A DNA stretch of 64,000 nucleotides from Gemmatimonadales bacterium (GTDB lineage: Bacteria > Gemmatimonadota > Gemmatimonadetes > Gemmatimonadales > GWC2-71-9): NCBI GenBank assembly GCA_965248285.1, contig CBDFJJ010000013.1, positions 1,800,384 through 1,864,383 on the forward strand, read 5' to 3'. A program made the translations under genes and the position numbers. Positions 33,511 to 56,460 of the stretch are shown here, piece by piece. A model generated the notes under the pieces. It saw nothing but the letters and a program-made list of their open reading frames with translations, made no database searches and was not told the DNA's origin. How positions within the stretch are numbered: the stretch's first letter is position 1; the number at the start of each line of letters is the position of its first letter.

Positions 33511-33595
33511 TACGCCCGGCGGGATTCGATGAACCCACGACCTTTCGCTCCGGAGGACTGTAGTTGCGTCGATGAGCGTCCGTGGGCGTCAATAA
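33511..33595 (-). repeat. Degenerate copy of the tRNA-Arg(CCG) 3' half plus the shared arm sequence (att-like)
   Basis: tacgcccggcgggattcgatgaacccacgacctttcgctccggagg, then actgtagttgcgtcgatgagcgtccgtgggcgtcaataa. Confidence 0.7.
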
Positions 33596-33689
33596 ACCGG
33601 GGCCAGGTTCACAACTCAACGCTTCCTTGTCTGCACGTCGTTCGGCTTGGAGAGGCATTGTTATTCAAGAATGTTGCCTGGAGATCGAC

Positions 33690-34145
33690 TCATCGTCTGT
33701 CATGAGCAGCCTGCGACTCGAGGTACCGCTTGAGTTTTCGTAGCTCGATCTCTGAGTGTTTTTTGTGCGATTGCCATCTGAGCGGCTCCAGGAACCTTAA
33801 CACTCCATTGAGGGACCACTCGTTTGCGAGTACAAGCCGAGTACATTCACCGCTCGCTTCGAGCGCATAGGAACCTCGACCCGAAGCGATCTTCCCTATA
33901 GTGAAAGTCCATGCCATACGTGACGGAAGATTAAACTCAACGATCTTGTACTTCCAAACTGCGCCCATGCCCCTTCCTTTCAGCATTAAATGGTAGACTG
34001 AGCCAAGGCGTGGCCCCCCTTCGGGCGCCTTGATCACCTCCGGCGCGACATACCACCAAACCGGATCGTTCCGCATCTCGCTGACAAAGCTGAAGATCTC
34101 GTCGACAGGTCGATCGATGGTTATCTCAACTTTCCAGTGCATCAT
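33690..34145 (-). CDS. SRPBCC-superfamily (polyketide cyclase/dehydrase-like) protein
   Basis: MMHWKVEITIDRPVDEIFSFVSEMRNDPVWW is a typical SRPBCC N-terminus. It is AT-richer than its surroundings. The track ORF extension to 34295 reads through the repeat arm. Confidence 0.7.
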   Translation of the reverse strand: MMHWKVEITIDRPVDEIFSFVSEMRNDPVWWYVAPEVIKAPEGGPRLGSVYHLMLKGRGMGAVWKYKIVEFNLPSRMAWTFTIGKIASGRGSYALEASGECTRLVLANEWSLNGVLRFLEPLRWQSHKKHSEIELRKLKRYLESQAAHDRR

Positions 34146-34449
34146 GCTGATTCTCTCCCACCCACGAAAGTGCCGTATTGGGAATTCCCCCGATTCAGTT
34201 CTTGCGTCATTTGCGTCGGTGGGCGTTGTGACAATGTTTGTGACAATTCTGACGTGAACGTTCAATGACGTTGCCGGGCTCGCGCTCCATCCCACCAGGC
34301 CACATCTTTCTCTTTATAATCGGGGAGACTTGACTCGACTTTCTGCCGGTGGCCCCCGGCCCCGCTGCCTGACCGACGCCCCCTAGGACGCCCGCCCGAC
34401 GACGAGATGCCGGCGCCGGACTGTCGGGCCTGCTTCAACGAAAAGAGGA

Positions 34450-34640
34450 TAGGTCTATCCTGCATCGTGCGTCTAACCCCGCTGCAGCGGACGCGTCCGC
34501 TGGCGCGTCCGGCGACGGCCTCGGTACGCTGGAGTGGGCAAACTCGCCGACATCGTGTTGCTCGATGCTAATCCTCAAATAGAGGACATCAAGAACACGC
34601 AGGCGAGTGCTGTCATCTCCCGTGACACTCGGCCGTCGAA
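34450..34640 (+). pseudogene. 3'-terminal remnant of an amidohydrolase
   Basis: Translates ...NPAAADASAGASGDGLGTLEWGKLADIVLLDANPQIEDIKNTQ, the C-terminal amidohydrolase block only. Confidence 0.55.
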
Positions 34641-34668
34641 CGAATACAATCCCTCGAGGAGGATAACA

Positions 34669-54126: not shown

Positions 54127-55015
54127 GGGCCATCCTCTCGAGCCGGCGGCGTACCGCCCTGCGAACGATCCAGGCGACCAACGGGTGTCTCGGACGCTCG
54201 ACTTGTCCGGTCCACGGATTGAAGAAATAGCCACGGCAATCCGTCGTGGAGGGGCGGCCGATCGCCAGCTTGACGGCCTCGAAGCACATCAAGTTGCCAG
54301 CGGTGATCACCATCGGGGCGAACGCCATGCGGTCTCGCTTTCCGGCAATCACGTCCGCGGCAATTGTCATGTCCACGTGGCGTGGCGACGACGAGTGAGT
54401 CATCACGTGCTCGATCTCGCGGATTTTGCATTCGTCGCATGCCGCATCAGAGATCTCTCGCCAGTCCACGCCGACGGTGGGGTAACCCAGGCGCTCTTCG
54501 GGCCTCGGGTCTTCCGGCCTTACGACGGTCACAGACGGCAGCGGCGACGCGTACGCATCCACCACCGTGGCGCCATGCTCCTTGGCTTTGCGATAGAGCT
54601 GCACGCCGGCCCGCACGTCGTCCATCCCGTTGATCACGATACGGTAGCGGGGCAGGATGGCGTCGAGCTGTTCCAACCATTCGGCGCCGTACGTTTCGAG
54701 CCGTGCCCCGGGATTGATATTGAGGATCTGCTGCCGGACGACGCCTGCCTTGTCCCTGCCCAGCGTGTCGATGAAGGCAAACACCTGGCGGTTGAGATTG
54801 GACACCTCGAACGTATCGATGTCCGCAAAGGCCAGATTGGAGAATCCCGAGCGTACGAGCGACAGGATGCACGCCCCACCCATCCCGCCCACGCCGCAGA
54901 CGAAGACGCCGGCATCCCGCATGCGCTCCTGCTCCTGCCCGCTCACGAAGCCGATGTTTCGCTGCACGAACTCCGCGTAGTCGAACGGGTTCACCGCCGC
55001 GCTCACCCCTTCCAT
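54116..55015 (-). CDS. ThiF/MoeB/HesA-family E1-like adenylyltransferase
   Basis: VFVCGVGGMGGACILSLVRSG...DIDTFEVSNLNRQ is the nucleotide-binding signature. The start overlaps the upstream stop. Confidence 0.85.
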   Translation of the reverse strand: MEGVSAAVNPFDYAEFVQRNIGFVSGQEQERMRDAGVFVCGVGGMGGACILSLVRSGFSNLAFADIDTFEVSNLNRQVFAFIDTLGRDKAGVVRQQILNINPGARLETYGAEWLEQLDAILPRYRIVINGMDDVRAGVQLYRKAKEHGATVVDAYASPLPSVTVVRPEDPRPEERLGYPTVGVDWREISDAACDECKIREIEHVMTHSSSPRHVDMTIAADVIAGKRDRMAFAPMVITAGNLMCFEAVKLAIGRPSTTDCRGYFFNPWTGQVERPRHPLVAWIVRRAVRRRLERMAHGV

Positions 55016-56049
55016 GGCCTCAACTCTCCGAGCTGCTGGTCCGGCGTGAACCAGTGGACCACGGGCAGGAGGACGGAACCCAACACCAAGAAGCCCGCCC
55101 ACGACAGAATCGATCCGAGCGAGTACTTTGGCACCGAGCGCATGAGATACTTCTGGGCGGTGGAGAGTGTCCACCGGCCGATCTGGAGAAAGTCGTCCCC
55201 GCGATCGTAATCGAGTTGTTCCAGACACATGCGATTGTACTCATCTCGGCGATGCTTGGGAGCTTCGTCGTAACTCTTTTTCAAGTTGTCGGAGCCGCCG
55301 GTATACGAGTTCACGATGACGAATTGTCCGGTGTGGAAGAGAGCTTCCTCGCCCACTCCGAACGCGTTGCGATGACGCTCCATGATCTGCCTTGCGATGC
55401 CGATGTGCGCCCGGGTGGGTCGGCGGCTGGGATCCGGGACCGGAAACACGTTATCGAAGCTCTCGGCGACCATCCCAAAGACGGACGGCACTTGCGTGAC
55501 GTTGCTGATCCAGATGGGCCGGAGCTGGCGGTGACAGAAGATCAGCATGACCGTGAGTCCGTACAGCACCCACGACAATCCCTTGCCTCGGAACGTCGGG
55601 TCCACCATAGCCAATCCGGTATGGAGCACCTCCTCTTCTCTGCCGCGGAGCGTCACTCGCAGCACGGAGAGCGCGTTGAACGCGACGGGCTCATCGGTCT
55701 CCCGATCGTACAGGACGGTCAGGATAGCGTCCTTCAGCCGTTCCGGGTCGCCCGACACCGCGCCGTAGTTCAGCGCACCCTGGTCGAGGGTTGCCACCAC
55801 GACAGACTGAAGATCAGCCACGATCCGCTGCAACGGTTCCGGCTCCATCCACATGCCTGGGCGCTCAACGATGCGGACGCGCAGATTGCCGACCCGGTGC
55901 ATCTCCAGGTCGAGATACCGGGACGTAATCAGGTGGCGGAACTGAAACATGACGTCCAAGGTGTGCTGGCGGACGGTGTCCCGATAGACCGGGCAGCGCA
56001 GCCTCGGGAGCCTGCCGTGGCTGACCGGGGGGCCCGCCCGTGACTCCAT
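55003..56049 (-). CDS. GNAT-fold-like acyltransferase with a C-terminal TM helix (hypothetical)
   Basis: VDPTFRGKGLSWVLYGL resembles GNAT motif A. The C-terminal hydrophobic segment is ILSWAGFLVLGSVLLPVV. It is the first gene of the five-gene string. Confidence 0.5.
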   Translation of the reverse strand: MESRAGPPVSHGRLPRLRCPVYRDTVRQHTLDVMFQFRHLITSRYLDLEMHRVGNLRVRIVERPGMWMEPEPLQRIVADLQSVVVATLDQGALNYGAVSGDPERLKDAILTVLYDRETDEPVAFNALSVLRVTLRGREEEVLHTGLAMVDPTFRGKGLSWVLYGLTVMLIFCHRQLRPIWISNVTQVPSVFGMVAESFDNVFPVPDPSRRPTRAHIGIARQIMERHRNAFGVGEEALFHTGQFVIVNSYTGGSDNLKKSYDEAPKHRRDEYNRMCLEQLDYDRGDDFLQIGRWTLSTAQKYLMRSVPKYSLGSILSWAGFLVLGSVLLPVVHWFTPDQQLGELRPWKG

Positions 56050-56295
56050 CCTCCGGCCTTACGATCATGCGACCCGGGCAATCGCGCTGTGTACTCCATC
56101 GTTTTCCCCAATGCTCAAAAGGCCACCGTGGACGGCAATCGAATCTGCTTGAGGGGCGTCAAGAGAACGTCAAGAACACCGCCGCCTGGCGGCGCAGGTA
56201 GTTGGGCTGCAGCGTTCTGCTCAAGGGCGGGTTCGTGTTCGATCCGGAGGAGTTGCGGCCTTCGCGGAACTAAAAAGATCTTGGCCGCTAAGTTT

Positions 56296-56338
56296 CTTGT
56301 GACGTTTTTTGTTACAACACTCAGAACGTCCTTCGAAC
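56296..56338. repeat. ttgtgac...tttgttacaa motif next to the intact tRNA-Arg, related to the arm motif of the att-like copies
   Basis: cttgtgacgttttttgttacaacactcagaacgtccttcgaac compared with gttgtgacaatgtttgtgacaattctgacgtgaacgttc. Confidence 0.5.
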
Positions 56339-56386
56339 AGCGCACTTCGCAACGCGTAAGTCACTGTCCGGTTTTCACTTCCCCAA

Positions 56387-56460
56387 TACGCCAGGCGGGA
56401 TTCGAACCCACGACCTTTGGCTCCGGAGGCCAACGCTCTATCCAGCTGAGCTACTGGCGC
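56387..56460 (-). tRNA. tRNA-Arg (anticodon CCG)
   Basis: Manual cloverleaf: GCGCCAG/CTGGCGT acceptor, anticodon loop CTCCGGA, T-arm GTGGG-TTCGAAT-CCCGC. 74 nt, no encoded CCA. Confidence 0.9.

What the first reader, a model, noticed from the sequence alone, without database searches (positions are those of the whole stretch)
33511..56460. Array of degenerate tRNA-Arg(CCG) 3'-half copies with shared arm motifs: tandem integrative-element scars without any integrase
Seen: the intact tRNA-Arg(CCG) lies at 56387-56460 (minus strand). Direct-orientation copies of its 3' half occur at 41455-41495, 35444-35486 and 33511-33556.

All copies keep identity up to ...ctccggagg (the anticodon loop) and then switch to the same non-tRNA sequence, actgta(g/a). 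Copies 33511 and 41455 share 39 further nt (ttgcgtcgatgagcgtcNgtgggcgtcaataa). They also share a second block, gcgtcatttgcgtcggtg..ggcgttgtgacaatgtttgtgacaattctgNcgtgaacgttc (34204-34262 and 41557-41626). A related ttgtgac..tttgttacaa motif lies on the other side of the intact tRNA (56296-56338) and at 35579-35606.

Established: tyrosine-integrase islands integrate into tRNA 3' halves, often crossing over in the anticodon loop. They duplicate that segment, and arm-type sites are short direct repeats.

Inference: 33.5-56.4 kb consists of at least three tandemly accreted islands of one family. Their cargo would be SRPBCC plus peroxiredoxin; kinase remnants plus PQQ-DH; and the YiiX-MMPL cluster plus the P450 operon. 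No recombinase ORF is visible. The islands are therefore either fixed relics, mobilised in trans, or a tRNA-derived repeat of another kind (SINE/MITE-like).
Basis: partly seen in the sequence, partly recalled or inferred. Interest (0 to 1): 0.6.

Follow-up and report, generated by a model that had tools for sequence, protein, structure and literature searches.

The report
tRNA-Arg integration scars without an integrase
Downstream of one arginine tRNA gene this Gemmatimonadota-like genome carries four decayed copies of the tRNA's 3' half, each joined to a conserved about 190-base repeat-rich module: the scars of mobile islands that inserted at the tRNA, none of which still encodes an integrase. 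This is a known kind of structure seen here in a little-studied phylum.

Summary
There are four direct-orientation copies of the tRNA-Arg(CCG) 3' half, not three (1909, 33511, 35444, 41455). All break from the tRNA right after ...CTCCGGAGG and continue with ACTGTA(G/A). None of the other six tRNAs in the window has fragments.

The junction plus arm is a conserved ~190-nt module, also found in nine loci from other Gemmatimonadota MAGs and metagenomes. It has two arm subtypes. Type 1 has seven GCGTC motifs about 10 bp apart. Type 2 has GGCGCTCATAnnCGATCATG twice. Both end in two TGTGACA repeats.

Related contigs differ exactly at the junction (L007 vs L008, L001 vs L005). One genome has an arm-only 175-nt unit between the tRNA and a fragment. 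Pfam, NCBIfam and PHROGs find no tyrosine or serine recombinase in the window, only IS transposases. None turned up in the ORFs tested at three of the related loci either.

Best reading (0.6): a decayed accretion array of site-specific integrative units at tRNA-Arg(CCG), of the CIME or Dehalococcoides ssrA-island kind, now fixed or dependent on an integrase supplied in trans.

Caveat: a shared derived T-loop lesion shows that some fragment+arm units were copied as units, not displaced independently. MITE/SINE, attC-like and ncRNA readings are rejected. Known kind, new phylum; moderate interest.

The parts
56387..56460 (-). Intact tRNA-Arg(CCG). This is the regenerated target (attL side) of the array. 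tRNA-Pro(CGG) lies 12 nt upstream of it.
   Evidence: ARAGORN; Rfam tRNA 69 bits.
56218..56386 (.). tRNA-proximal arm (X arm) of the youngest unit. It carries TTGTGAC/TGTTACAA at 56297-56317.
   Evidence: 56218-56261 matches the sequence next to the amidohydrolase-like 3' end in L005 (86%). 56356-56386 matches the flank of tRNA-Arg copy 2 in L002. TGTGACAAT lies at a similar distance downstream of both tRNA-Arg(CCG) genes of L002.
41627..56217 (.). Cargo of unit A: YiiX-like C92 amidase, MMPL/LolA-like transporter, GNAT, weak nitroreductase-like protein, RoxA-like cytochrome c, P450, membrane protein, ThiF-like protein, and a 348-aa protein of unknown function. No recombinase.
   Evidence: Pfam; NCBIfam and PHROGs negative for the unknown ORFs. 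L018 is 96% identical over 52907-56111. A 72% homologous cluster in L019 has no tRNA in the 505 nt upstream that the contig holds.
41496..41626 (.). Type-1 arm of unit A. It starts with ACTGTAG, then GCGTC three times (41505-41529), a spacer, GCGTC-like four times (41557-41590), and TTGTGACAAT twice (41589-41610).
   Evidence: It differs by 2-5 of the 91 compared positions from the arms of L005, L008 and L009. Conservation profile.
41455..41495 (-). tRNA-Arg 3'-half fragment 3. It has a 2-nt T-loop deletion (GATGAACCC) and one substitution.
   Evidence: The same lesion occurs in L004, L008, L010 and L009.
35612..41454 (.). Cargo of unit B: a Ser/Thr kinase-PD40 gene split by a frameshift (37991-35803, minus strand), the C-terminal remnant of a second PD40 protein (38124-38567, minus strand), and a PQQ dehydrogenase (38737-41121, minus strand).
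   Evidence: Pfam; repeat D9; translations.
35487..35611 (.). Type-2 arm. It starts with ACTGTAA, has GGCG(C/T)TCATAnnCGATCATG-like repeats, and ends with TTGTGACAAT/GGTGACAAG.
   Evidence: 86% identical to L001 over 173 nt. nhmmer type-2 profile E=8e-66.
35444..35486 (-). tRNA-Arg 3'-half fragment 2. The T stem is mutated (4 substitutions) but the loop length is wild type.
34203..34407 (.). Distal part of the type-1 arm of unit C: GCGTC three times (one 10-nt repeat missing) and TTGTGACAAT twice. It is followed by the conserved leader that precedes a PD40-domain ORF in L005.
   Evidence: Matches L005 4618-4838 (86%), L004 (92.5%) and L003 (90.7%). Alignment.
34513..34607 (+). Remnant of the 3' end of an amidohydrolase gene. 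It is all that remains of the PD40/amidohydrolase-type gene that sits in this position in L005. The 1-Cys peroxiredoxin gene follows at about 34680-35328.
   Evidence: Matches L005 7856-7943 (84.6%) and L004 772-716 (91%). Pfam for the peroxiredoxin.
33599..34202 (.). Secondary insertion of about 600 nt that splits the type-1 arm. It carries an SRPBCC (Polyketide_cyc2) gene on the minus strand (33690 to about 34150).
   Evidence: In winA, L005, L008 and L009 the two arm blocks are separated by only about 20-25 nt. Pfam.
33557..33598 (.). Proximal part of the type-1 arm of unit C: ACTGTAG followed by GCGTC three times (33566-33590).
33511..33556 (-). tRNA-Arg 3'-half fragment 1. It has a 3-nt T-loop insertion (GATTCGATGAACCC) and two substitutions. 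It lies 30 nt after the stop codon of the PD40-amidohydrolase gene 30155-33481.
   Evidence: Identity with L014 and L015 stops at 33477.
1940..33510 (.). Oldest, mosaic block (unit D). Contents: LanC-like protein, HupE, nitrile hydratase, two IS256-type transposases, amidohydrolases, ParDE, M20 peptidase, DinB, beta-lactamase-like protein, S9 peptidase, racemase, and two PD40-amidohydrolase paralogues. No integrase.
   Evidence: Pfam.
1909..1939 (-). Fragment 0 (anticodon loop to the T stem only) plus ACTGTAG. A degenerate type-1-like stretch follows up to the LanC-like stop codon at 1965.
   Evidence: nhmmer E=8e-8. blastn-short 92% over 24 nt.
459..1790 (+). IS3-family insertion sequence about 120 nt to the left of fragment 0. 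orfB is at 862-1755. It truncates a cytochrome c gene at the window edge.
   Evidence: Pfam rve/HTH_21. The terminal repeats TTCTTGGACAC...GTGTCCAAGAA-like were read by eye; the repeat finder did not report them.

Best explanation
The region from 1.9 to 56.4 kb is a decayed accretion array built by site-specific recombination at the tRNA-Arg(CCG) gene.

Proposed mechanism. Each incoming unit carried an attP made of three parts:
- a short tRNA-proximal arm (a tRNA terminator plus TGTGACA motifs);
- a copy of the tRNA from the anticodon loop to a few bases past the 3' end;
- a distal arm that starts with ACTGTAG and holds phased direct repeats (GCGTC in type 1, a 20-mer in type 2), ending in two TGTGACA repeats.

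Recombination with the tRNA restored the gene with the unit's 3' half. It pushed the previous 3' half, together with all older units, away from the tRNA. That displaced half now abuts the new unit's ACTGTAG arm.

Later history. The units lost, or never had, their own recombinase. They were then reshaped by deletion, by IS and single-gene insertion, and by recombination between the repeated att modules. Every fragment in this window is damaged, so excision would leave a defective tRNA. The array here is therefore effectively fixed. Where intact att pairs persist, as in unit A, movement would need an integrase supplied in trans (CIME-like).

Shown: the fragments, their orientation and common breakpoint; the conserved module and its presence in other Gemmatimonadota; junction-exact differences between related contigs; the absence of recognisable recombinase genes.

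Inferred: that a tyrosine integrase did the recombination; that the repeats are its arm-type or accessory-factor binding sites; where the strands cross over.
For: 1. Four fragments, all co-oriented with the tRNA and on its 3' side, and only for this one of seven tRNAs.

2. One breakpoint for all (...CTCCGGAGG|), with 0 of 100 shuffles reaching the observed counts.

3. The same junction plus arm occurs in nine Gemmatimonadota-type loci, five from GTDB genomes and four from metagenomes.

4. The conservation profile over six type-1 units is as follows:
- about 0.6 in the left flank, the level of unrelated sequence;
- a jump to 0.97-0.99 from about 10 nt outside the tRNA 3' end, through the fragment and the first GCGTC block;
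- a dip to 0.80 in the spacer;
- 0.96-0.97 over the second GCGTC block and the TGTGACAAT pair;
- a decay back to about 0.6.
This is the pattern of a bounded module with binding-site-like constraint. Arms differ by only 2-5 of the 91 compared positions between genomes.

5. Junction-exact differences between related contigs:
- L007 and L008 are 99% identical through a kinase gene, its terminator and the fragment. They diverge right after GGAGG into a type-2 arm and a third, unrelated sequence.
- L001 and L005 share 450 nt of left flank plus fragment at 95.8%. They then carry type-2 and type-1 arms respectively.

6. L002 has an intact tRNA, then 175 nt made only of X-arm and Y-arm motifs, then a fragment. 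This is an empty att pair.

7. TGTGACA motifs lie on both sides of the core, as arm sites do.

8. Synteny breaks at fragment 33511.

9. Precedents:
- Tandem ssrA islands in Dehalococcoides. Fifteen lack an integration module, and a conserved non-ssrA motif abuts each repeat (PMC3146451).
- CIME accretion (PMC5704250).
- Partial tRNAs and degenerate remnants in Prochlorococcus islands (10.1101/2020.12.28.424599).
Against: - No integrase was found with this att module. It is absent from the window (Pfam on about 70 ORFs plus intergenic segments; NCBIfam and PHROGs on the unknown ORFs). It is also absent from the ORFs tested in L002, L004 and L005. ORFs of L003 and L007-L010 were listed but not scanned. 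All seven units with both ends visible or inferred lack one.
- Fragments 33511 and 41455 (and 1909-like) share a derived T-loop lesion. That lesion recurs with type-1 arms in L004/L008/L010 and in L009, behind three different left flanks. Independent displacement of working tRNA halves does not predict this.
- No excision product or empty site was seen for the window's own units.
- The L007/L008 difference could in principle be an assembly join through the repeat.
- GC content does not set the blocks apart.
Confidence: 0.6

Rival explanations
1. One ancestral integration scar (fragment plus arm) was multiplied and spread by processes that are not site-specific. Candidates are unequal crossing-over between the fragment and the tRNA or between fragments, gene conversion among copies, and en-bloc transfer of array segments followed by homologous recombination. 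On this view the four junctions do not record four integrations, and no integrase needs to have acted more than once.
For: - The derived T-loop lesion (GATGAACCC) is shared by 41455 and, with an extra 5 nt, by 33511. Fragment 1909 has the same shortened loop length. The same lesion is linked to type-1 arms in other genomes.
- The arms are nearly identical within and between genomes.
- All seven units with both ends visible or inferred lack an integrase.
- Both L001/L005 and L007/L008 can be explained by loss of a unit through recombination between fragments.
Against: - Two arm subtypes and a third, unrelated junction sequence all abut exactly the same base of the anticodon loop.
- Duplicated units should share cargo next to the arm, but cargo differs from about 130 nt onward.
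- Fragment variants such as the compensated T stem of L005 look like halves of different working tRNAs.
- TGTGACA motifs on both arms, and the arm-only unit of L002, fit an attP layout.
Confidence: 0.2
2. The ~190-nt module is mainly a conserved regulatory region (operator plus promoter) for the gene that follows it, which is a Ser/Thr kinase or a PD40-type gene. The tRNA piece is an old scar carried along passively. The repeats bind a transcription factor rather than a recombinase.
For: - In L008 the module runs directly into the ATG of an intact kinase gene. In L003 it runs into a truncated copy of that gene's 5' end.
- In L005, and in window unit C, it precedes the leader of a PD40-domain ORF.
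- The repeats are more conserved than the spacer.
- In L002 the arm contains a palindromic TTGTCACAA-N5-TGTGACAA, which resembles an operator.
Against: - The module precedes unrelated genes in other copies. In unit A the next gene is a YiiX-like amidase. In L004 and L010 a different tRNA fragment follows.
- In unit C the module is split by an inserted gene without being lost.
- No sigma-70-like promoter is found.
- This reading does not explain four co-oriented copies downstream of the cognate tRNA, or TGTGACA motifs next to the intact tRNA.
Confidence: 0.12
3. A tRNA-derived non-autonomous transposable repeat (MITE- or SINE-like) that inserts at many sites.
For: The module is short (~190 nt), has no coding capacity and recurs in several genomes.
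Against: - All window copies are co-oriented and lie on the 3' side of the cognate tRNA. There is none elsewhere in the 64 kb.
- The GTDB scan returned one locus, with one exact junction match, per genome, including a 3.1-Mb chromosome.
- No terminal inverted repeats or target-site duplications are visible in the aligned copies.
- The left boundary is simply the tRNA 3' end with its natural terminator.
- There is no CCA complement that would make it a primer-binding site (sequence).
Confidence: 0.03

Closest known systems
Tandem ssrA (tmRNA) genomic islands of Dehalococcoides (McMurdie et al. 2011, PMC3146451)
   Same: Several islands lie in tandem downstream of one essential small-RNA gene, each bounded by a direct repeat of that gene's 3' end. 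A conserved motif that does not align with the gene abuts every repeat, comparable to ACTGTAG here. About half of the islands (15) lack the integration module and were proposed to be cis-mobilizable or fixed. The cargo is metabolic.
   Different: The target there is tmRNA, with a crossover in the T loop and a 20-bp repeat. The recombinase is a serine integrase and is present in 16 islands. Here the repeat is about 45 nt and runs from the anticodon loop to the 3' end. No integrase was seen with any unit. A further ~130-nt repeat-rich arm is conserved.
CIMEs (cis-mobilizable elements) and accretion at tRNA or fda sites in streptococci (Pavlovic 2004 and Bellanger 2011, as reviewed in PMC5704250)
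   Same: These elements kept attL and attR but lost their integration and transfer genes. They sit in tandem with other units at the same site. Arrays arise through integration next to a decayed resident.
   Different: CIMEs are recognised by their relation to a known ICE or IME whose integrase moves them. No such helper has been identified here. The fragments in this window are damaged, so excision would not restore the tRNA.
tRNA-flanked genomic islands of Prochlorococcus shaped by tycheposons (Hackl et al., 10.1101/2020.12.28.424599)
   Same: Repeated integration at a tRNA pushes older elements inward. Partial tRNAs and degenerate remnants are scattered through the islands. Intact integrase-bearing elements make up only a few percent of the island DNA.
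   Different: Integrase-bearing tycheposons and fragmented integrases were found there. Neither was found here. No conserved long arm module was described in the text I read.
Islander/TIGER definition of tDNA islands and Williams' anticodon-loop sublocation (PMC4383910, PMC7192596; Williams 2002 from my own knowledge)
   Same: There is a regenerated tDNA plus a displaced fragment in direct orientation. The identity block begins in the anticodon loop and runs through the 3' end. Tandem arrays are known.
   Different: Islander requires an integrase gene inside the island, and none of the units here would pass that test.
Integron cassette arrays
   Same: A row of gene-carrying units is separated by copies of a recombination-site-like module, and no recombinase lies inside the units.
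   Different: There is no IntI/attI/Pc platform next to the array. The module does not fold as single-stranded DNA the way attC does (z +1.2 and +1.4). Units hold from 0 to more than 12 genes in both orientations.

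Membership tests
tRNA-targeting integrative island (Islander-type) | An intact target tDNA at one end and a displaced fragment of the same tDNA, in direct orientation, at the other end | tested here: met
   The tRNA at 56387-56460 plus four co-oriented fragments.
tRNA-targeting integrative island (Islander-type) | The identity block starts inside the tRNA (anticodon loop or T loop) and extends to or past the 3' end | tested here: met
   Identity runs from CTCCGGAGG (anticodon loop) to 2-10 nt beyond the 3' end.
tRNA-targeting integrative island (Islander-type) | An integrase gene (tyrosine or serine recombinase) lies within the island | tested here: not met
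   No Phage_integrase, Resolvase or Recombinase hit in any window ORF or intergenic segment. Only DDE transposases were found. None in the ORFs tested in L002, L004 and L005.
tRNA-targeting integrative island (Islander-type) | Presence/absence or replacement polymorphism among relatives, bounded exactly by the att sites | tested here: inconclusive
   Seen in related loci (L007 vs L008, L001 vs L005). A synteny break is seen at 33477. No empty site was found for the window's own units, and the source genome is not on record.
tRNA-targeting integrative island (Islander-type) | Excision to a circle carrying attP and restoring attB | not testable with these tools
   This needs reads or PCR.
CIME (cis-mobilizable element) | Retains both attL and attR sequences | tested here: met
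   Unit A has a type-1 arm plus fragment at 41455-41626 and an X arm plus tRNA at 56218-56460. The core fragment is damaged, however.
CIME (cis-mobilizable element) | Lacks integration and transfer genes | tested here: met
   No recombinase was found in the calls listed above. No relaxase or type IV secretion domain appeared in any Pfam output for the window.
CIME (cis-mobilizable element) | Derived from, and mobilised by, a related ICE or IME whose integrase recognises the same att sites | not tested
   No helper was found. Five viral-contig scans found nothing relevant.
Integron | An IntI gene with attI and a Pc promoter at the head of the array | tested here: not met
   The head of the array is the tRNA pair. 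The next genes are a lipocalin-like protein and an IS5-type transposase.
Integron | attC sites that fold as imperfect single-strand hairpins | tested here: not met
   The module folds no better than shuffled sequence on either strand (z +1.37 and +1.17).
MITE / tRNA-derived SINE-like repeat | Dispersed copies at unrelated sites, with terminal inverted repeats and/or target-site duplications | tested here: not met
   Copies occur only downstream of the cognate tRNA, all in one orientation. The GTDB scan returned one locus with one exact junction match per genome. No TIRs or TSDs are visible in the aligned copies.
Known structured RNA (Rfam) | A match at gathering score | tested here: not met
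   Only the two tRNAs match in 33-57 kb.

The most novel reading that the evidence does not exclude
The ~190-nt module is the working recombination site of a Gemmatimonadota-wide system in which units carry no integrase. Units range from zero genes (L002), through one gene (the kinase in L008; a PD40-domain ORF in L005), to more than 12 genes. They would be captured, shuffled and exchanged at the tRNA-Arg(CCG) gene by a recombinase encoded elsewhere in the genome. This would be a tRNA-anchored gene-capture platform that is the functional analogue of an integron but mechanistically lambda-like, with double-stranded att sites and arm repeats.

Observations that point this way:
- The arms are strongly conserved (95-98% between genomes), while the neighbouring non-coding DNA shows no recognisable similarity in the multi-genome comparison.
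- The same arms occur with quite different cargo.
- Related contigs differ exactly at the junction.
- All seven units with both ends visible or inferred lack an integrase.
Probability: 0.15. Interest if true: 0.7.

Novelty: new member of a known kind. Interest (0 to 1): 0.4.

Why it matters
Arrays of displaced tRNA halves are the standard signature of island accretion, so the basic structure is ordinary. Three things give it some value.

1. It defines a precise, searchable att module (core, ACTGTAG, phased GCGTC or 20-mer repeats, TGTGACA pair) for Gemmatimonadota. My two literature searches and the four papers I read did not surface integrative elements from this phylum. These were not targeted searches for the phylum.

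2. Every unit seen lacks an integrase, yet the arm is kept at 95-98% identity between genomes. The question is therefore whether these are dead scars or trans-mobilised cassettes. That can be tested directly with long-read population data or with a candidate integrase.

3. The locus explains a 54-kb stretch of strain-specific metabolic genes (P450/ThiF cluster, PQQ dehydrogenase, peroxiredoxin, nitrile hydratase). It also warns annotators that pseudo-tRNA hits here are att scars.

Tried and rejected
1. Looking for an integrase.
- Pfam on all substantial ORFs of the window: none.
- Pfam on about 100 concatenated intergenic ORF segments: none.
- NCBIfam and PHROGs on ten unknown ORFs: none.
- Pfam on ORFs of L002, L004 and L005: none.

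2. Five viral-contig scans. The queries were the junction, the tRNA half, the TGTGACAAT pair, the type-3 junction and the X arm. The only hit was an unrelated tRNA-Arg (L013). Plasmid and phage BLAST of the module gave no match.

3. Source-genome walk. Window proteins are not on record, so nothing beyond the window could be read.

4. Kinase homologue contexts. These led to a plain tandem kinase family without tRNA fragments and were not informative.

5. Homologues of the 348-aa protein. The 96%-identical contig ends 62 nt before the arm. A 72% homologous cluster shows no tRNA in the 505 nt upstream that its contig holds.

6. A small ORF on the minus strand of the arm (MWPGGMERE...). Rejected because its reading frame through the TGTGACAAT repeats differs between copies.

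7. ncRNA or attC-like folding. Rejected.

8. Sigma-70 promoter scan of the arms. No sites found.

9. A primer-binding-site (retroelement) reading of the antisense tRNA half. Rejected because the CCA complement is absent.

10. L006, L011 and L012 are low-GC or non-Gemmatimonadota loci (two at 42-43% GC) without the tRNA T arm. I treated them as chance matches of the search pattern.

Full report
**1. Checking the observation**

ARAGORN finds seven tRNA genes, all on the minus strand. Among them is tRNA-Arg(CCG) at 56387-56460, lying 12 nt from tRNA-Pro(CGG). Rfam confirms both.

Read on the plus strand, the 3' half of the tRNA recurs in the same orientation at three places:
- 41455-41495, 93% identity
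- 35444-35486, 91%
- 33511-33556, 89%

Each copy keeps identity up to ...CTCCGGAGG, which is the anticodon loop plus one stem base. It then reads ACTGTAG, or ACTGTAA at 35487.

Shuffling shows this is far beyond chance:
- junction 15-mer: 4 matches against 0.09 expected
- 22-nt core: 5 matches against 0.00 expected
- 20-nt 3' end: 3 matches against 0.01 expected

Its homology starts only at the T stem. About 120 nt to its left sits an IS3-family element.

A blast of all seven tRNAs against the window shows that only tRNA-Arg(CCG) has fragments. Profile searches built from the units find no further copy in the 64 kb.

- 33528-33598 vs 41467-41537: 96% over 71 nt
- 34203-34263 vs 41556-41626: 96%, apart from one missing 10-nt repeat

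TTGTGACAAT pairs lie at 34226/34238 and 41589/41601, with one copy at 35580. A TTGTGAC...TGTTACAA motif lies at 56297-56317 on the 3' side of the intact tRNA.

**2. Anatomy of the repeated module**

An alignment of the window copies with copies from elsewhere shows two arm subtypes behind a common core.

Type 1 (window 33557 and 41496, and degenerate at 1940) has this layout:
- ACTGTAG
- three GCGTC motifs 10 bp apart
- a variable spacer of about 20-25 nt
- four more GCGTC-like motifs 9-10 bp apart
- two TTGTGACAAT repeats
- TCTGNCGTGAACGTTC

Type 2 (window 35487) has ACTGTA, two copies of a GGCGCTCATAnnCGATCATG-like 20-mer, and then the same pair of TGTGACA repeats.

In unit C (33511 to 35444) the two halves of the type-1 arm are separated by a ~600-nt insertion that carries an SRPBCC gene. 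Behind the arm, the PD40-type gene that L005 still has in this position is deleted, apart from the last ~90 nt of its amidohydrolase-like 3' end. The peroxiredoxin gene follows.

**3. Gene content and the search for a recombinase**

It also adds the content of 1.9-33.5 kb:
- LanC-like protein, HupE, nitrile hydratase
- two IS256-type transposases
- amidohydrolases, a ParDE pair, M20 peptidase, DinB
- beta-lactamase-like protein, S9 peptidase, racemase
- two PD40-amidohydrolase paralogues

No tyrosine or serine recombinase appears in any of the following:
- the substantial ORFs of the window
- about 100 intergenic ORF segments scanned as concatenates
- ten unknown ORFs scanned against NCBIfam and PHROGs

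The only recombinases present are DDE transposases (IS3, two IS256, and an IS5-like element at 57370-58470). The intergenic gaps next to each fragment are all under 350 nt, so there is no room for an integrase pseudogene beside any att site.

**4. The same module elsewhere**

One scan of species-representative genomes with the junction pattern returned five Gemmatimonadota MAGs, L001-L005. One metagenome scan returned four more loci of the same type, L007-L010. The remaining hits (L006, L011, L012) are low-GC or non-Gemmatimonadota loci that lack the T arm. I treat them as chance matches. The best named protein relative of a window gene is from Candidatus Palauibacter, a Gemmatimonadota genus.

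The module is sharply bounded. Over six type-1 units the column conservation behaves as follows:
- about 0.6 in the left flank
- a rise roughly 10 nt outside the tRNA 3' end
- 0.97-0.99 through the fragment, ACTGTAG and the first GCGTC block
- 0.80 in the spacer
- 0.96-0.97 across the second GCGTC block and the TGTGACAAT pair
- a fall back to about 0.6

Type-1 arms differ by only 2-5 of the 91 compared positions between genomes. Coding sequence shared by the same loci is about 85% identical. The repeats therefore look constrained, or else recently spread.

**5. Comparative evidence for recombination at the junction**

(a) L007 overlaps the end of L008 at 99% identity through a 742-aa Ser/Thr kinase gene, its terminator and a second fragment. 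The two contigs part exactly after ...CTCCGGAGG. L007 continues with ACTGTAG and a type-2 arm. L008 continues with an unrelated sequence, TCGGCGACGGGC.... In that organism the unit between the two fragments holds only a type-1 arm, the kinase gene and a terminator, about 2.5 kb in all.

(b) L001 and L005 share 450 nt of left flank plus fragment at 95.8%, up to ACTGTAG. L001 then carries a type-2 arm and L005 a type-1 arm.

(c) In L002 the tRNA cluster is syntenic with the window. The intact tRNA-Arg(CCG) is followed by 175 nt that consist only of a terminator, TGTGACA motifs and a short GCGTC block, and then by ACTGTAG and a fragment. This is an att pair with nothing between. A second tRNA-Arg(CCG) gene with compensating T-stem changes has the same TGTGACAAT-plus-terminator flank.

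(d) The window's PD40-amidohydrolase gene ends 30 nt before fragment 33511. It has 94.5%-identical orthologues in L014 and L015, but identity stops at the gene's ends and no fragment follows there.

(e) The window's X arm (56218-56261) matches the sequence next to the amidohydrolase-like 3' end in L005. The same pair of arms can therefore enclose quite different cargo.

**6. What it most likely is**

The geometry, the single breakpoint, the repeat-rich arms on both sides of the core and the junction-exact differences all fit the standard model for elements that integrate into the 3' part of a tRNA gene. In that model the element's attP carries the tRNA 3' part. Integration regenerates the gene and displaces the old 3' part. 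Repeated integration stacks units, with the newest next to the tRNA. This model is established knowledge (Islander, PMC4383910; Williams 2002, from my own memory).

The arm lengths are about 130 nt on one side. On the other side, the TGTGACA motifs lie about 70-90 nt from the tRNA end. To my knowledge these sizes are in the range of lambda-type attP arms. That comparison is a resemblance, not a test.

The absence of integrases has precedent:
- Fifteen of the Dehalococcoides ssrA islands lack the integration module. Every repeat there is abutted by a conserved non-ssrA motif (PMC3146451).
- CIMEs are defined as att-flanked units without integration genes (PMC5704250).
- In Prochlorococcus islands, intact elements are a small minority among partial tRNAs and remnants (10.1101/2020.12.28.424599).

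I therefore read the window as a decayed accretion array whose units are now fixed. All four fragments are damaged, so excision would leave a defective, probably essential, tRNA.

**7. What does not fit neatly**

The T loop is hit in almost every type-1-linked fragment:
- wild type: GATTCGAACCC
- 41455, L004/L008/L010 and L009: GATGAACCC
- 33511: GATTCGATGAACCC, which contains that same derived 9-mer
- 1909: a loop of the same shortened length
- the L002 fragment: homology only from the T loop onward

The lesion occurs behind three different left flanks but always with a type-1 arm. At least some fragment-plus-arm modules must therefore have been copied or moved as units after the fragment had stopped being a working tRNA half. 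This could happen in several ways:
- duplication or gene conversion within arrays
- transfer of composite arrays
- a crossover at or beyond the tRNA 3' end rather than in the anticodon loop

I cannot decide between these. It lowers my confidence that each junction records a separate integration. It is also the main support for the rival 'amplified scar' reading.

**8. Rivals rejected or down-weighted**

- A MITE/SINE-like repeat is rejected on orientation, location, copy number and lack of TIRs or TSDs.
- An attC-like or ncRNA function is rejected. There is no Rfam hit, and single-strand folding is no better than for shuffled sequence.
- A small ORF in the arm is rejected because the reading frame is inconsistent between copies.
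- A purely regulatory role remains possible as a secondary function. The module abuts the start codon of the kinase gene in L008. But it also precedes unrelated genes, and no sigma-70-like promoter is detected.

**9. Novelty and score**

The structure belongs to a known kind, so I file it as a new member. Three aspects may be new. The phylum is one, since my literature searches did not surface such elements in Gemmatimonadota (they were not targeted at the phylum). The sharply defined and highly conserved arm module is another. The third is that none of the seven units seen with both ends, spanning zero to more than 12 genes, carries an integrase.

This leaves open, at perhaps 15%, a trans-served cassette-exchange system anchored at the tRNA. 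That would be considerably more interesting. Overall interest: 0.4.

Noticed in passing
window 30001-30103; also L001 and L005 left flanks: A 42-nt-arm hairpin made of (GTGAGAG)n repeats sits just upstream of the PD40-amidohydrolase gene, exactly where identity with L014 and L015 begins. A similar (GTGAGAA)n element lies in the flank left of the fragment in L001 and L005. It may be a REP-like element that marks mosaic boundaries.
   Followed up: no
window 30103-33477 vs L014 2695-6072 and L015 6123-9500: A single 3.4-kb gene is 94.5% identical between the window and two other assemblies, while both flanks are unrelated. This is gene-sized mosaicism of a PD40-amidohydrolase paralogue.
   Followed up: partly
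window 16485-16919 (ParD/ParE pair at 16521-17016) vs L004 1-434: A ParDE toxin-antitoxin region is 96% identical to a stretch in another MAG. That MAG also carries the type-1 module, and an amidohydrolase 3' remnant lies nearby. The TA pair looks mobile or recently shared.
   Followed up: no
window 13813-13920 and 35803-38567; L003 5740-5807, 6484-6556, 7047-7215: Several truncated pieces of Ser/Thr kinase genes are present. In the window there are an N-terminal fragment, one kinase-PD40 gene split by a frameshift, and a C-terminal remnant of another. L003 has three separate truncated 5' ends, each followed by unrelated small genes. The conserved kinase 5' end may be a recombination hotspot.
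   Followed up: partly
L004 about 3600-3640 and L010 about 5240-5270: In these two contigs the shortened type-1 arm runs directly into the 3' end of a different tRNA in the opposite orientation (GCGAGTTCGAATCTCGCCGTCCCGACCA), followed by its terminator and miaA. This looks like a second kind of tRNA scar abutting the first.
   Followed up: no
L002 2875-2949 and 6791-6865: There are two full tRNA-Arg(CCG) genes 3.8 kb apart. Their T-stem differences compensate each other, and both have the same TGTGACAAT-plus-terminator downstream flank. A HipA-like toxin gene lies between them.
   Followed up: partly
T loop of the fragments: window 1909, 33511, 41455; L002, L004, L008, L009, L010: Lesions and homology breakpoints cluster at the T loop in nearly all type-1-linked fragments. 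This is unexplained. One possibility is a second recombination site in the T loop. Another is a single old lesion that has been propagated.
   Followed up: partly
window 459-1790, 6482-7741, 11262-12494, 57370-58470: Four IS transposase genes occur in 64 kb: one IS3-type, two IS256/Mutator-type and one IS5-like. The IS5-like element sits between the tRNA pairs, on the chromosomal side of the array.
   Followed up: partly
window 41736-56049: An unusual gene cluster with several members of no known family. It contains a YiiX-like amidase, an MMPL transporter fused to a LolA-like domain, a GNAT, a nitroreductase-like protein, a RoxA-like di-haem cytochrome c, a P450, a polytopic membrane protein, a ThiF-like enzyme and a 348-aa protein with more than 1,600 homologues but no Pfam family. 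The core genes (348-aa protein, ThiF-like enzyme, membrane protein) stay together in L018 and L019.
   Followed up: partly
window 1965-6344: A LanC-like protein, HupE/UreJ, and nitrile hydratase beta and alpha subunits lie side by side directly after fragment 0. The alpha subunit has a weak match to a Frankia-type ribosomal peptide family.
   Followed up: no
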